Below, in pieces: positions 20,726 through 29,907 of a DNA stretch of 38,808 bases. Position 1 is the first letter of the stretch. Each line of letters opens with the position of its first letter. The notes beneath the pieces are model-generated. The model ran no database searches and was not told the origin of the DNA. It was given only the letters and a program-made list of their open reading frames with translations. This DNA is from Thermoplasmata archaeon. Lineage in GTDB: Archaea > Thermoplasmatota > Thermoplasmata > Lutacidiplasmatales > UBA184. Where the stretch lies: the NCBI GenBank assembly GCA_028864975.1, contig JAGWLG010000035.1, positions 1-38,808 of the forward strand, written 5' to 3'. Made by a program: the position numbers and the translations under genes.

Positions 20726-21592
20726 GTGCTGCCGCTAGTACTGCTCCTCCTAGGCATCTTCCTGCTCGCCGTCGGTGCCGGTGTGCTAGGTTCGATGCTG
20801 GGGCTGGGGGGAGGCATGGTCATCGTCCCCGGGTTGGTCCTGCTCTTTGGGGTCGACGTCCATTGGGCGATCGCGACCTCTCTGGTCTCGGTGATCGCGA
20901 CCTCGGCCGGGTCGGCTTCCCGGTACGCTCGCAAGGGCCTCCTCCATCTCCGCCTGGGGTTCTTTCTCGAGGTCGCGACCGTGGTCGGGGGGCTCGTGGG
21001 CGCGGTCCTCACCGCTGCGGTGCTCATCGGACCGGTGGGCACCGAGGTCCTTCTCTTCCTGTTCGCCGTGGTCGCTTCCTCGGCGAGCTTCCTCCTCCTG
21101 CGAGACCTTCGGCGGGGCGGAGTTGCGGAACAGCCCCGTGACCCGCTCGCGGACCGCTGGAGGCTGCACGCGACCCTCCCGGCCGACGGCCCCTCCCCCT
21201 CCCGGGCCTTCCGGGTCGGTCACGTACGCGAGGGGCTGTCGCTGAGCTTCGTCGCCGGGCTCTCCTCTGGCCTGCTCGGGATCGGCGGGGGGCTCTACAA
21301 GGTGCCTGCGATGACCGCGGTCATGGGGGTGCCGATGAAGATGGCCTCGGCCACAAGCTCGCTGATGATCGGAGTGACCGCGGCCTCGGGGGCGTTGGTC
21401 TTCCTCTTGCATGGCGAGGTGGCTCCGCTCATCACCGCCCCCGTCGCCGTCGGGACGCTGGCGGGGACGCAGGTGGGGACGCACGTGCACGCGGTGGCCT
21501 CCTCCCGCGCCCTCCGCATCATCTTCCTCGTGGCGATCCTGGCCGCCGTCGCTTTGATGATCCTCCGGGGGCTGGGGGTGACCTCGGCATGA
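20726..21592 (+). CDS. TauE/SafE family (sulfite exporter-like) membrane protein
   Basis: Two copies of the G..G.GGG...VP motif (GSMLGLGGGMVIVP; GLLGIGGGLYKVP), AIATSL/ASATSS; SD AGGAG before GTG 20726. Confidence 0.9.
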   Translation: MLPLVLLLLGIFLLAVGAGVLGSMLGLGGGMVIVPGLVLLFGVDVHWAIATSLVSVIATSAGSASRYARKGLLHLRLGFFLEVATVVGGLVGAVLTAAVLIGPVGTEVLLFLFAVVASSASFLLLRDLRRGGVAEQPRDPLADRWRLHATLPADGPSPSRAFRVGHVREGLSLSFVAGLSSGLLGIGGGLYKVPAMTAVMGVPMKMASATSSLMIGVTAASGALVFLLHGEVAPLITAPVAVGTLAGTQVGTHVHAVASSRALRIIFLVAILAAVALMILRGLGVTSA

Positions 21593-21987
21593 GCACGGTC
21601 GCGGGGGAGCCCTCCTCTCCGACGCGGGCGATCGACCTCGCTCAGCTCTCGGAAAGACTGGGTCGGCTCCTTGCTGCCGGCGTCCTCGCGAGCGCTTTCC
21701 TGCTGGCCGTGGGCGTGGTCGTCATCGTCGTGTTGGCGCCCGGGACGGGGATGGATGGGCTCCTCTCGGCCCGGTCGCGGGGAAGCTGGGGACCCGCATC
21801 CCCGGGGGTCCTCCTCATCGCCTCCGGGATCGTGGTGCTCGTGGCCACCCCCGTGGCCCGAGTCCTCCTGGCAGCGAGAGCGTTTGCGACCGCTGGAGAG
21901 GATGACTATCTGGGACTTGTCCTTGCGGTGCTGCTCATCTTGACCTTGAGCGTTGTCGTCGGTTATTGGCTCCCGCCCTCGCTCTAG
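21589..21987 (+). CDS. DUF1634-like membrane protein (usual TauE partner)
   Basis: ATGA-coupled to TauE; L..G..VLVATPVARV motif; 3 TM. Confidence 0.75.
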   Translation: MSTVAGEPSSPTRAIDLAQLSERLGRLLAAGVLASAFLLAVGVVVIVVLAPGTGMDGLLSARSRGSWGPASPGVLLIASGIVVLVATPVARVLLAARAFATAGEDDYLGLVLAVLLILTLSVVVGYWLPPSL

Positions 21988-27297: not shown

Positions 27298-27552
27298 TCA
27301 CTTCAGGAGATAGTAGCCCGCGGCCTTCTCGCGGACCTTGCGGGTCGCGAAACCCTTGTTCTGGAGGTCCTGGAGCGCGCCCTGGACCATCCCCTTGGGG
27401 AGCTTGCAGGTCTGGGTGATGCGCTCCATCGTGCCCATCTTGGCCTCGTTCGTGAGACCGAGTTCCTTCATGGCCTTGTAGACCTTGAGCGTGTTCCCGG
27501 AAAGTTCGTCCGTGATCGAGGGAGCCTGCTCCCCGAATCCGTATTCCTCCAT
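27298..27552 (-). CDS. Small winged-helix DNA-binding protein
   Basis: 84 aa from ATG 27552; KVYKAMKEL...TMERITQTCKLPKGMVQGALQDLQNKGF..R....GYYLL wHTH pattern. Confidence 0.8.
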   Translation of the reverse strand: MEEYGFGEQAPSITDELSGNTLKVYKAMKELGLTNEAKMGTMERITQTCKLPKGMVQGALQDLQNKGFATRKVREKAAGYYLLK

Positions 27553-27642: not shown

Positions 27643-28359
27643 ATGGCACGGGTGGAGGACCACGAGTCGGTCGAGGGGTGCGCGCTCCCGAGCAAACTCC
27701 TCTACGACCTCGAATTGGATGTCTGGGCTCGACCCGGAGGAGACGGCCGCCTGCTGACCTTCGGCATCATGTCGCCCCTGGCGTCGTTCGCGGGGAAGTT
27801 CCTGGAGGTCTCCTTCCGTCGGATCGAAGGAGCGCTCACGCGCGGTCAGAGCGTCGCGACGATCGTGAGCGCACGTTTCACGGGAGCCGTTCGCGTCCCC
27901 GCGGGAGGGCAGATCGTCGAGCGCAATCCGGAGCTATCGCAGCGTCCGAAGCTTCTCAACAACGACCCTTACGGACAGGGCTGGGTCGCGACGGTCGATC
28001 TGGGGGGATCGGCCCCCCTCCCTCCCACGCTCCGAGACGCCTCCCACGTGCGGGAGGAGGTCGCGCGGAAGGTCCGCGAGATGCACATCCGCTGCTATCC
28101 CGCCGTCCCCGACGTCGAGCTCTTCGAGATCGGGAGCGAGTGTTCCGCAGTGCTCGCTCACCTCGACGACGAGGTCGCCCGGCGTGCTCCCGAGGAAGTG
28201 ATCCTCCTTGTCGCGGACGATCCGACCGCCCCCATCGAGCTGGAACGATGGCGGATGAGGACCGGCCACAGTATCCTTCATTGGAGGAAGGAGGAGAACC
28301 TCTACCACTTCCTGGTCCGACGGGAGCGAGCGCCCCGACCTTCTCGTCCCTCCCCCTGA
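27643..28359 (+). CDS. Fusion of glycine-cleavage H-protein-like domain (lipoyl Lys replaced by Arg) and TusA/SirA-like sulfur-carrier domain
   Basis: H-like: LLY...DVWA...TFGI, GQSVATIVSARF, NPEL..RP.LLNNDPYGQGW. TusA-like: IGSECS...LLVADDPTAPIELERW...YHFLVRR. SD GAGGAG. Confidence 0.85.
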   Translation: MARVEDHESVEGCALPSKLLYDLELDVWARPGGDGRLLTFGIMSPLASFAGKFLEVSFRRIEGALTRGQSVATIVSARFTGAVRVPAGGQIVERNPELSQRPKLLNNDPYGQGWVATVDLGGSAPLPPTLRDASHVREEVARKVREMHIRCYPAVPDVELFEIGSECSAVLAHLDDEVARRAPEEVILLVADDPTAPIELERWRMRTGHSILHWRKEENLYHFLVRRERAPRPSRPSP

Positions 28360-28420: not shown

Positions 28421-29098
28421 ATGGAGGTCCGCGCCTACCGCCCTCGCGACGCCAAGGCCTGCGTGGAGCTGTTTCACCAGTTGACGGAGGTTCACCGTAA
28501 GCTCTACGACGACCCGACGATCGGCAGCAAGGACCCGGCGAGGAGCTTCCGCGCCCAGCTGCGCGAACACGGGCCGGGCAACAGCTGGGTCGCGGTGCAC
28601 CGAGGGCGCGTCGTCGGGCTCACCGGGCTGGTCCCGCATCGCGGGTGGAGCTTGATCGAACCCGTCGTGGTGCTGGAAGGGTTTCGACGGCGCGGGGTGG
28701 CGAGGCTCCTCATCACGACCGTGGTCGAAGAGGCCCGCCGACGTCACTTGGACGCCCTACTGATCAAACCGGTCGCCCGGAACACCGCGGCCCTGCGGAC
28801 CTTCCACGCACTCGGGTTCCGGGCGCTGGGACAGGTCGAGCTTCTCATGCCTCTGCGGGGGAAGGGGTGGTTCAAGCCCGTCCCGGGACCGACCCTGGCA
28901 GGTCGCCGTTTCCAGAGGTGGGGCCCAGCCTCATGGTGGGGGAGCTCGGCCCCAGTGCCGCCCCGCCCGGGAGACGAAGCTCGGGACCCGACGCGTGACC
29001 GGCCCCTGAGCCCTGGCGGCCCAGGCGCCGAACAGGTTCAGGGGCGCTCGATCGGGCTGCGGATCTGGTTCCCCCACTCGGTCCAGGACCCGTCGTAG
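28421..29098 (+). CDS. GNAT family N-acetyltransferase
   Basis: Acetyl-CoA motif VVVLEGFRRRGVARLLI, N..AL..F..LGF; low-complexity C-terminus overlaps the convergent gene. Confidence 0.82.
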   Translation: MEVRAYRPRDAKACVELFHQLTEVHRKLYDDPTIGSKDPARSFRAQLREHGPGNSWVAVHRGRVVGLTGLVPHRGWSLIEPVVVLEGFRRRGVARLLITTVVEEARRRHLDALLIKPVARNTAALRTFHALGFRALGQVELLMPLRGKGWFKPVPGPTLAGRRFQRWGPASWWGSSAPVPPRPGDEARDPTRDRPLSPGGPGAEQVQGRSIGLRIWFPHSVQDPS

Positions 29099-29907
29099 TT
29101 GCGGACGTTCGGGTAGCCCAGGAGGTACTTCAGAACGAACCAGCTGTGGCTCGAGCGTTCGCCGATCCGGCAGTACGTGATGACCTCCTTCTCGGGGGTC
29201 ACGCCCTTCGACGTGTAGAGCTTCTCGAGCTCTGCCCGGCTCTTGAACGTCCCGTTCTCGTTCACGGCCTGGGCCCAGGGGATGTTCGTGGCGCCGGGGA
29301 TGTGGCCGCCGCGCTGGGCATGCTCGGTAGGATACTCGGGCGGCGCGGTCACCTCTCCGGTGAACTCCTTGGGCCCGCGCACGTCGACCAGCACCTCGCT
29401 TCCCGCCTTCACTTTCGGAAGGACGTCCCGCACGTAGTCGTGGAAGACCCGAAGTTTCTCGTCGGTCGGGTCGAGTCGTGGGGTCGCTGCGGGATAGGAG
29501 GGCACCTCCTTCGTCAGAGGCCGGTCCTCCTCGATCCACTTCTTCCGGCCCCCGTTGATGAGTCGGACGTCCTTCACGCCGTGGTGCGTCAGGACCCAGA
29601 AGGCGAAGGCGGCGAACCAGTTGTTGAAGTCCCCATAGAGCAGGAGGGTCGTCCCGGGACCGACTCCGGCCCTGGTGAGGAGGGCCGCGACCCCCTCGCG
29701 CGAGAGGATGTCTCTTCGGACCGGGTCGTTGATGTCCTTCCTCCAATCGAAGAGAACAGCCCCGGGCAGGTGTCCCAGAGCGTAGTTCGCCGAGGGGTCG
29801 TAGTCGACCTCGGCGATGCGCAGGCGGGGGTCGGCGAGATGTTCGGCGACCCAGGCGGTCTCGACCAAGGTCTCGGGGTGGGCGTAGTTCTTCTCCGGTG
29901 GCGTCAT
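29038..29907 (-). CDS. Tandem-domain rhodanese (thiosulfate/3-mercaptopyruvate sulfurtransferase)
   Basis: Y..GHLPGAV, LVDVRGPKEFTG, GHIPGA, active-site YCRIGERSS, YDGSWTEWG; start ATG 29907. Confidence 0.95.
   Translation of the reverse strand: MTPPEKNYAHPETLVETAWVAEHLADPRLRIAEVDYDPSANYALGHLPGAVLFDWRKDINDPVRRDILSREGVAALLTRAGVGPGTTLLLYGDFNNWFAAFAFWVLTHHGVKDVRLINGGRKKWIEEDRPLTKEVPSYPAATPRLDPTDEKLRVFHDYVRDVLPKVKAGSEVLVDVRGPKEFTGEVTAPPEYPTEHAQRGGHIPGATNIPWAQAVNENGTFKSRAELEKLYTSKGVTPEKEVITYCRIGERSSHSWFVLKYLLGYPNVRNYDGSWTEWGNQIRSPIERP

What the first reader, a model, noticed from the sequence alone, without database searches (positions are those of the whole stretch)
27643..28359. Non-lipoylatable H-protein domain fused to a TusA sulfur carrier
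Seen: the lipoyl motif ESVK is replaced by VSAR (Arg codon cgt at 27874-27876) while the rest of the H fold is well conserved; the TusA domain keeps its Cys (27643 frame, tgt at 28141-28143) but not the CPxP prolines. Established: H-like lipoate-binding proteins and TusA act together in sHdr-type sulfur oxidation, and H-protein is the scaffold for sulfur insertion in lipoate synthesis. Inference: the H domain is repurposed as a docking module, with a persulfide Cys replacing the lipoyl swinging arm, delivering sulfur to lipoyl synthase/ligase or to an sHdr or L-protein partner. This is a possible undescribed sulfur-relay adaptor.
Basis: partly seen in the sequence, partly recalled or inferred. 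Interest (0 to 1): 0.78.

Follow-up and report, generated by a model that had tools for sequence, protein, structure and literature searches.

The report
Lysine-less LbpA-TusA fusion with rhodanese
A soil archaeon encodes a conserved, unstudied two-domain sulfur-carrier protein that has lost its lipoate-attachment lysine but keeps three invariant cysteines and travels with an ordinary thiosulfate sulfurtransferase, which points to a lipoate-free way of passing sulfur atoms along.

Summary
ORF 27643-28359 (+) encodes 238 aa with an H-protein fold and a TusA fold (AF2 pLDDT 95.5). Arg78 (cgt 27874-27876) sits in the lipoyl-lysine column, and Cys167 (tgt 28141-28143) aligns with TusA Cys19 in ECSAV rather than CPxP.

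First, two more invariant cysteines (C13, C151) are the published signature of LbpA, the lipoate-binding protein of sHdr sulfur oxidation; the nearest stand-alone relative lies in an sHdr cluster. Second, the conserved partner is a tandem thiosulfate-sulfurtransferase-type rhodanese (29038-29907, -).

In 107 of 107 close homologs R78, C13, C151 and C167 are kept. More distant fusions carry K, R or other residues at 78 but keep all three cysteines.

In 301 sampled Thermoplasmata genomes, fusion and rhodanese occur in the same four families. An Hdr-like cluster does not track them.

Best reading (about 0.5): a cysteine-only sulfane-sulfur relay, rhodanese to TusA Cys to the LbpA-type Cys pair.

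No paper describing this fusion was found. This scan reached the same reading earlier on another genome (e1-5231402).

The parts
27643..28359 (+). Gene for the 238-aa LbpA-type H domain / TusA domain fusion protein (P0001)
27670..28098 (+). LbpA-type H-protein-like domain (residues about 10-152)
   Evidence: GCV_H Pfam hit. H-protein fold at TMt 0.89. The H-domain profile scores a bona fide LbpA (P0152) at 132 bits and the genome's own GcvH at 57 bits.
27679..27681 (+). Codon of invariant Cys13, the N-terminal LbpA-signature cysteine
   Evidence: The signature is described in PMC6067878.
27874..27876 (+). Codon cgt of invariant Arg78, in the column of the lipoyl lysine
28093..28095 (+). Codon of invariant Cys151, the C-terminal LbpA-signature cysteine at the domain junction
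   Evidence: The spacing to C13 is 138 residues, the same as Cys7/Cys145 of TK90LbpA2.
28105..28326 (+). TusA-like domain (residues about 155-228) with the DDPTxP motif
28141..28143 (+). Codon tgt of invariant Cys167, equivalent to TusA Cys19, in ECSAV instead of CPxP
29038..29907 (-). Tandem-domain thiosulfate-sulfurtransferase-type rhodanese (P0257, 289 aa), the conserved convergent partner
29170..29172 (-). Codon of the catalytic Cys246 in the CRIGERS active-site loop of the rhodanese
   Evidence: the CRIGERS loop, C246 to S252, is invariant in 19 orthologs
28421..29098 (+). GNAT acetyltransferase gene inserted between the fusion and the rhodanese. It is specific to this lineage and is probably not part of the module.
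   Evidence: It is absent at this position in L002, L003, L004, L007, L009 and L116.

Best explanation
The gene encodes a lipoate-free, cysteine-only sulfur carrier. Its N-terminal domain descends from LbpA, the GcvH-like lipoate-binding protein of sHdr sulfur oxidation. It keeps LbpA's cysteine pair (C13/C151) but has Arg in place of the lipoyl lysine. Its C-terminal domain is a TusA sulfur carrier with the active cysteine (C167). The functional partner is the neighbouring tandem rhodanese of the thiosulfate-sulfurtransferase type.

Proposed mechanism:
- The rhodanese takes sulfane sulfur from thiosulfate or another persulfide donor onto its Cys246, releasing sulfite.
- It passes the sulfur to TusA Cys167.
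- The sulfur then moves to the LbpA-type cysteine pair. That pair plays the dithiol-acceptor role that dihydrolipoamide plays in lipoylated LbpA: it either holds the sulfur as a persulfide or trisulfide for a downstream acceptor, or resolves it to sulfide and a disulfide.

Shown: the domain identities, the invariant residues, the LbpA kinship, and the co-distribution and adjacency with the rhodanese. Inferred: every sulfur-transfer step, its direction, and the final acceptor.
For: Folds and residues:
- H-protein and TusA folds are predicted at pLDDT 95.5.
- C167 aligns with TusA Cys19.
- R78, C13, C151 and C167 are present in all 107 homologs of 39-68% identity wherever the column is covered.
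- Arg78 uses five different codons.

LbpA kinship:
- TK90LbpA2 Cys7/Cys145 have the same 138-residue spacing, and in models of LbpA proteins the conserved pair lies within disulfide distance (bioRxiv 10.64898/2026.10.01.755906).
- The best stand-alone relative, P0152, lies in an sHdrA-hyp-HdrC-HdrB-DsrE-LbpA-radical SAM cluster.
- P0152 scores 132 bits on the H-domain profile, against 57 bits for the genome's own GcvH.

Cysteines, not lysine, are the conserved core:
- Distant fused forms have R (17), K (10) or T/S/V/H (4) at position 78. All but one (P0153, Phe at 151 and a gap at 13) keep the three cysteines.

Rhodanese link:
- A convergent ortholog follows the fusion in 78 of 80 species loci.
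- It is also present in independent contexts whose other neighbours differ: L004, L009, and the Lys-type L113 and L116.
- In 301 Thermoplasmata genomes the fusion occurs in f1 33/37, f10 10/10, f27 14/16 and f29 2/3. The rhodanese occurs in f1 34/37, f10 10/10, f27 11/16 and f29 1/3, plus one distant hit elsewhere.
- Where the two genes are unlinked (several f27 genomes, and the L038 genome), both are still present.

The rhodanese itself:
- It matches T. thermophilus rhodanese 1UAR at E 1e-111 and has an invariant CRIGERS loop.

Literature:
- Rhodaneses exchange sulfur with TusA, and A. aeolicus TusA pulls down LbpA2 and LbpA3 (PMC11094781).
- Rhodanese uses dihydrolipoate as a sulfane acceptor (cited in PMC6067878).
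Against: No biochemical data exist for any member. The two genes are convergent, so they are not co-transcribed. Most of the 80 adjacent loci come from related genomes with a broadly syntenic neighbourhood, so the number of independent observations is small: about five contexts and four families. I could not read model coordinates, so the distances between C13/C151 and C167, and the position of R78, are unknown. C151 lies 7 residues before the first TusA strand, which may place the pair far from C167 within one chain. No role for the invariant Arg is established. One sub-clade (223 aa, L005/L006) and L114 lack an adjacent rhodanese, and their genomes could not be searched. The TusA domain lacks CPxP and scores below Pfam's gathering threshold in this protein.
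Confidence: 0.5

Rival explanations
1. Biosynthetic sulfur donor. The rhodanese-fusion pair mobilises sulfur for tRNA thiolation, molybdenum cofactor or Fe-S assembly, as TusA does in E. coli. In this reading the LbpA-like domain is only a docking or stabilising module.
For: TusA has established roles in tRNA 2-thiouridine and Moco synthesis (background cited in PMC11094781). The pair stands alone, away from dissimilatory sulfur genes. One Lys-type relative (L116) lies about 6 kb from NifU/NifS-like genes, and L114 lies next to tRNA-modification genes TiaS and TrmO.
Against: The pair is restricted to 4 of 33 sampled Thermoplasmata families, which is odd for a housekeeping role. No conserved linkage to any thiolation or Moco gene was seen. 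The invariance of the LbpA cysteine pair would be left unexplained.
Confidence: 0.15
2. The Lys-less H domain docks onto enzymes that recognise H-protein or LbpA (lipoyl synthase, lipoate ligase, sHdr complex, L-protein), and the TusA cysteine delivers sulfur there.
For: The H fold is intact. The genome has LipA, LplA-type ligases, GcvT and an Hdr-like cluster with DsrE and TusA. TusA is reported to interact with LbpA and sHdr subunits (PMC11094781).
Against: The Hdr-like HdrB ortholog is found in only 11/37 f1 genomes and 0/16 f27 genomes, while the fusion is in 33/37 and 14/16. LipA, LplA and GcvT lie on other contigs. No lipoate or Hdr gene recurs near the fusion in any context examined.
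Confidence: 0.1
3. Not a sulfur carrier. The three invariant cysteines form a redox switch, a thiol-disulfide oxidoreductase site, or a metal or Fe-S site, and the protein senses or buffers redox or sulfide stress.
For: Three invariant cysteines sit alongside invariant acidic residues (E166, D192, D193). In structural models of LbpA proteins the conserved cysteine pair is within disulfide distance. In this lineage a small wHTH gene lies divergently upstream.
Against: The TusA fold, the position of its cysteine and the DDP motif are those of a persulfide carrier. The conserved partner is a catalytically intact sulfurtransferase. The wHTH gene is not conserved outside close relatives.
Confidence: 0.12
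4. Decoy or regulator of lipoate metabolism. An unlipoylatable H-like protein competes with GcvH or E2 domains for the ligase, or for glycine-cleavage P, T or L proteins.
For: Arg keeps the positive charge and the hairpin geometry of the lysine. A canonical GcvH, GcvT and LplA coexist in the genome.
Against: The domain is LbpA-type, and LbpAs are poorly recognised by GcvH-type ligases (bioRxiv 10.64898/2026.10.01.755906). This reading explains neither the TusA domain, nor the cysteines, nor the rhodanese partner.
Confidence: 0.03

Closest known systems
LbpA, the lipoate-binding protein of the sHdr sulfur-oxidation system (Cao et al. 2018, PMC6067878)
   Same: [quoted passage not shown] The nearest stand-alone relatives are LbpAs in sHdr clusters.
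   Different: The strictly conserved lipoyl lysine is Arg. The domain is fused to TusA. The gene is not in or near an shdr cluster and does not co-occur with Hdr-like genes.
TusA sulfur carrier (E. coli TusA/YhhP; TusA of the Rhd-TusA-DsrE cascades, PMC11094781)
   Same: It has the same fold (TMt 0.87-0.88). Its cysteine sits at the N-terminus of helix 1 and aligns with Cys19. It has the DDPxxxxE/D...W motif and a rhodanese as likely sulfur donor.
   Different: ECSAV replaces CPxP. The domain scores below Pfam's gathering score in this protein. It is a C-terminal domain of a fusion, not an approximately 80-aa stand-alone protein.
GcvH, H-protein of the glycine cleavage system
   Same: It has the same overall fold (TMt up to 0.89) and is picked up by the same Pfam family, GCV_H.
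   Different: It has no lipoyl lysine, carries extra cysteines, and has no gcvT or gcvP nearby. The genome has a separate canonical GcvH with ESVK. NCBIfam GcvH models score far below their cut-offs.
Rhodanese with dihydrolipoate as sulfane-sulfur acceptor (Villarejo and Westley 1963; Silver and Kelly 1976, as cited in PMC6067878)
   Same: A thiosulfate sulfurtransferase is paired with a dithiol acceptor carried on an H-like scaffold. Lys-type fusions with the same rhodanese partner may use exactly this chemistry.
   Different: Here the dithiol would be a protein cysteine pair, not lipoamide. This has not been demonstrated.

Membership tests
LbpA (sHdr-associated lipoate-binding protein) | GcvH-like fold | tested here: met
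   AF2 model against PDB H-proteins, TMt 0.79-0.89
LbpA (sHdr-associated lipoate-binding protein) | [quoted passage not shown] | tested here: met
   C13 is present in all 105 covered sequences and C151 in 107/107. The spacing is 138 residues, as for Cys7/Cys145 of TK90LbpA2. The genome's own GcvH lacks both.
LbpA (sHdr-associated lipoate-binding protein) | Strictly conserved lipoyl-attachment lysine | tested here: not met
   Arg78 occupies the lysine column in 107/107 close homologs
LbpA (sHdr-associated lipoate-binding protein) | Encoded in or next to an shdr gene cluster | tested here: not met
   No Hdr genes occur within 8-10 kb in any context. The HdrB-like ortholog does not co-occur.
TusA (PF01206) | TusA two-layer alpha/beta fold, with the active cysteine at the start of helix 1 | tested here: met
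   Foldseek match to 3lvj_C at TMt 0.87. C167 aligns with Cys19. Helix 167-180 is present in the model.
TusA (PF01206) | CPxP motif around the cysteine | tested here: not met
   The family consensus is ECSAV/ECAAV
TusA (PF01206) | Score above Pfam's gathering threshold | tested here: not met
   24.5 bits against 28.6 for the window protein. Many homologs carry a precomputed PF01206 hit.
TusA (PF01206) | Carries a cysteine persulfide and passes it on | not testable with these tools
   Needs protein chemistry
GcvH (glycine cleavage H-protein) | Lipoyl lysine in ES(V)K, and function with GcvT/GcvP | tested here: not met
   R78 replaces the lysine. NCBIfam GcvH scores are 38-59 bits against cut-offs of 116-117. 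The canonical GcvH and GcvT lie elsewhere in the genome.
Tandem-domain thiosulfate sulfurtransferase (the neighbouring rhodanese) | Two rhodanese domains, with a catalytic Cys in a CRxGxR-type loop in the C-terminal one | tested here: met
   Two PF00581 hits. The CRIGERS loop is invariant in 19 orthologs. 1UAR matches at E 1.4e-111.

The most novel reading that the evidence does not exclude
The LbpA-type cysteine pair, not lipoamide, is the site that receives sulfane sulfur from TusA. This fusion would be a natural 'Rosetta stone' showing that hand-off. Together with its rhodanese it would form a self-contained, lipoate-independent archaeal module that converts thiosulfate or persulfide sulfur into a protein-bound or released reduced form. 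That would also assign a function to the so far unexplained conserved cysteines of LbpA in sHdr sulfur oxidation.
Probability: 0.3. Interest if true: 0.75.

Novelty: new variant of a known kind. Interest (0 to 1): 0.6.

Why it matters
LbpA and TusA are central to a widespread cytoplasmic sulfur-oxidation pathway, yet two points remain open. One is what the conserved LbpA cysteines do: they are dispensable for recognition by the lipoate ligase. The other is how TusA hands sulfur to LbpA. A natural fusion of the two domains that repeatedly lost the lipoyl lysine but never the three cysteines argues that the cysteines form a working sulfur site in their own right, and it gives a simple two-protein system in which to test this. 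It also marks an unannotated sulfur-handling module in abundant soil and peat Thermoplasmata. Related fusions occur in clusters whose few assigned members are mostly Nitrososphaerota. Current pipelines label these proteins 'glycine cleavage system H protein' or 'hypothetical'.

Tried and rejected
- Complex prediction on rhodanese plus fusion gave no verdict. The score was 0.73, but a control with the rhodanese replaced scored 0.56. I use it neither for nor against binding.
- I could not obtain model coordinates, so no Cys-Cys or Arg-Cys distances were measured. /data holds no structure files.
- The FastTree tree of H domains is short-sequence and poorly resolved, and the intended GcvH-type outgroup did not stay together. 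I use it only to show that K and R forms are interspersed, not to order events.
- Sequencing error or private mutation is rejected.
- General loss of lipoate metabolism as the reason for K to R is rejected. LipA, LplA-type ligases, GcvT and a canonical Lys-bearing GcvH are present.
- Linkage to the genome's DsrE-ArsR-TusA-FlpD-HdrA-HdrC-HdrB cluster is rejected on distribution.
- Literature searches for a GcvH/LbpA-TusA fusion found no description.
- The genomes of L005 and L114 are not held, so the rhodanese could not be sought there.
- The adjacency count of 78/80 is not treated as 78 independent observations, because the whole neighbourhood is syntenic among most of those loci.

Full report
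**Observation**

The window has 68% G+C and comes from a Thermoplasmata MAG (GCA_028866665.1, contig JAGWHS010000008.1). A TFIIB gene upstream confirms an archaeon.

ORF 27643-28359 (+) has coding-type codon-position composition and encodes 238 residues. Pfam finds GCV_H at residues 28-120 (E 2.7e-15). It finds TusA at 165-227 (E 2.4e-5), just under the gathering score. NCBIfam GcvH models score far below their cut-offs.

Alignments to solved H-proteins put the lipoyl lysine of ESVK on R78 of VSAR. A gapless alignment to E. coli TusA puts Cys19 of GLRCPEP on C167 of GSECSAV, codon tgt at 28141-28143.

An AF2 model built on 43 homologs is very confident (pLDDT 95.5, pTM 0.87). It matches H-proteins at TMt up to 0.89 and TusA at TMt 0.87-0.88. 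No solved structure has the two domains fused.

**Conservation**

A search of 5.8 billion proteins found 106 relatives at 39-68% identity, most of them 215-260 aa and fused. Those that carry a name are from Thermoplasmata or are labelled 'glycine cleavage system H protein'.

In this set R78, R84, C151 and C167 are present in every sequence that covers the column. Arg78 is written with CGG, CGC, CGA, CGT and AGG across 72 loci, so selection acts on the amino acid.

The window protein is slightly atypical. The family consensus is ES(V)R, and only 3 of 107 sequences have lost the Glu.

**What the H domain is**

Cao et al. 2018 describe LbpA, the GcvH-like lipoate-binding protein of the sHdr sulfur-oxidation system. 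They report that LbpA is distinguished from GcvH by two strictly conserved cysteines, one near each terminus (PMC6067878).

A 2026 preprint places these cysteines at positions 7 and 145 in TK90LbpA2. It reports that in structural models of LbpA proteins the conserved pair lies within disulfide distance. It also shows they are not needed for recognition by the ligase, so their role is still open (10.64898/2026.10.01.755906).

C13 and C151 here have the same 138-residue spacing. A profile search of 1.8 billion representatives found that the best stand-alone relatives are 145-150-aa proteins with C...ESGK...C. The top one, P0152, lies in an sHdrA-hyp-HdrC-HdrB-DsrE-LbpA-radical SAM cluster. The H-domain profile scores P0152 at 132 bits and the genome's own canonical GcvH at 57 bits. 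That GcvH has ESVK and no cysteine pair. The domain is therefore LbpA-type with the lysine replaced.

**Lysine is dispensable, the cysteines are not**

Among 31 more distant fused representatives, position 78 is R in 17, K in 10 and T, S, V or H in 4. All but one keep the three cysteines; P0153 has Phe at 151 and a gap at 13. K and R forms are interspersed in a rough tree.

The genome has LipA, two LplA-type hits, GcvT and a canonical GcvH. The change is therefore not part of a general loss of lipoate metabolism.

**Partner**

The only gene that recurs next to the fusion is a 280-291-aa tandem rhodanese on the opposite strand, arranged tail to tail. In the window a GNAT gene is inserted between them.

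Among 80 species loci from GTDB representatives, all titled Thermoplasmata MAGs except one titled 'bacterium', 78 have the ortholog (58-81% identity, nearly all 66-75%). In 77 it begins within about 120 nt downstream. One of the two exceptions has no flank to inspect. In the other exception the rhodanese is elsewhere in the same genome.

Most of those loci share a wider synteny that includes SUI1, ABC-2 transporter and AHSA1 genes. The independent evidence is therefore smaller. It rests on the window and L009, on L002/L003/L007, on L004, and on the two Lys-type fusions L113 and L116. These have different flanks but the same partner.

In an even sample of 301 genomes of the class, the distributions match closely:

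| Family | Full-length fusion | Rhodanese ortholog |
|---|---|---|
| f1 | 33/37 | 34/37 |
| f10 | 10/10 | 10/10 |
| f27 | 14/16 | 11/16 |
| f29 | 2/3 | 1/3 |
| all other families | none | one distant hit (f24) |

In several f27 genomes the two genes lie on different contigs or are 8-45 kb apart, yet both are retained. These tallies include two unpublished genomes (G098 and G212, both f1/g2). Removing them changes f1 to 31/35 and 32/35 and alters nothing else.

The rhodanese is an ordinary thiosulfate-sulfurtransferase type. It matches T. thermophilus rhodanese 1UAR at E 1e-111 and mycobacterial thiosulfate sulfurtransferases at about 1e-85 to 1e-89. Its CRIGERS loop is invariant.

**What it is not linked to**

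The genome has a DsrE-ArsR-TusA-FlpD-HdrA-HdrC-HdrB cluster on another contig. Its HdrB ortholog occurs in only 11/37 f1 genomes and 0/16 f27 genomes, and it occurs in two f1 genomes that lack the fusion. LipA, LplA and GcvT are unlinked.

**Mechanism**

The following points are established elsewhere:
- Rhodaneses exchange sulfane sulfur with TusA.
- A. aeolicus TusA co-purifies with LbpA2 and LbpA3 and with sHdr subunits (PMC11094781).
- Rhodanese uses dihydrolipoate as a sulfane acceptor (cited in PMC6067878).

From these I infer a relay: rhodanese Cys246 to TusA Cys167 to the C13/C151 pair. In this relay the protein dithiol takes the role of dihydrolipoamide. The Lys-type fusions with the same partner suggest an ancestor in which lipoamide and the cysteines coexisted.

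The end point is unknown. It could be a further acceptor, or release of sulfide with formation of a disulfide. The role of the invariant Arg is also unknown, as are the intramolecular distances, because I could not read coordinates. A complex prediction gave no verdict.

**Novelty**

Five literature searches found no description of this fusion. The ESM Atlas holds related fused clusters of 76-228 members. For the few members with an assigned phylum, the commonest is Nitrososphaerota.

This scan had already reached essentially the same reading on another genome (e1-5231402). I re-derived each point here and do not count that note as evidence.

I class the finding as a new variant of a known kind, the LbpA/TusA/rhodanese sulfur relays, with moderate to high interest.

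Noticed in passing
window 20726-21987 (+): A TauE/SafE-family (sulfite-exporter-type) gene followed by DUF1634 lies about 6 kb upstream of the fusion. The same arrangement is seen in the close relative L009. Sulfite is the by-product of thiosulfate sulfurtransferase, but this linkage is not seen in the other lineages.
   Followed up: partly
window 27298-27516 (-): A small (72-121 aa, depending on the start chosen) weakly TrmB-like winged-helix gene lies divergent from the fusion. It is also present in L009 but not in other lineages.
   Followed up: partly
window 28421-29098 (+) and 29038-29907 (-): A GNAT acetyltransferase gene is inserted between the fusion and the rhodanese. Its 3' end overlaps the 3' end of the convergent rhodanese gene by 61 nt.
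   Followed up: no
own genome, contig C20 (L112 9037-16824): A DsrE - ArsR-type HTH - TusA - FlpD - HdrA-like (904 aa) - FAD/ferredoxin protein (581 aa) - small ORF - HdrC-like - HdrB-like cluster. It is a non-methanogen Hdr-like system with sulfur-carrier genes, and it is patchily distributed in the family (11/37).
   Followed up: partly
G007, G020, G032, G042, G052, G062, G080, G096 (f10) and several f1 genomes: Many genomes that have the fusion also have a separate H-like gene matching profile positions 3-145 at 100-111 bits, which is in the range of LbpA-type proteins. The window's own genome has none.
   Followed up: no
L002, L003, L007 and 61 of 80 loci (about 1 kb upstream of the fusion): An AHSA1/SRPBCC-family gene of about 150 aa precedes the fusion on the same strand in most f1-type loci, but not in the window.
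   Followed up: no
own genome, contig C59:133747-138428: GcvT lies about 3 kb from a second gene with two rhodanese domains.
   Followed up: no
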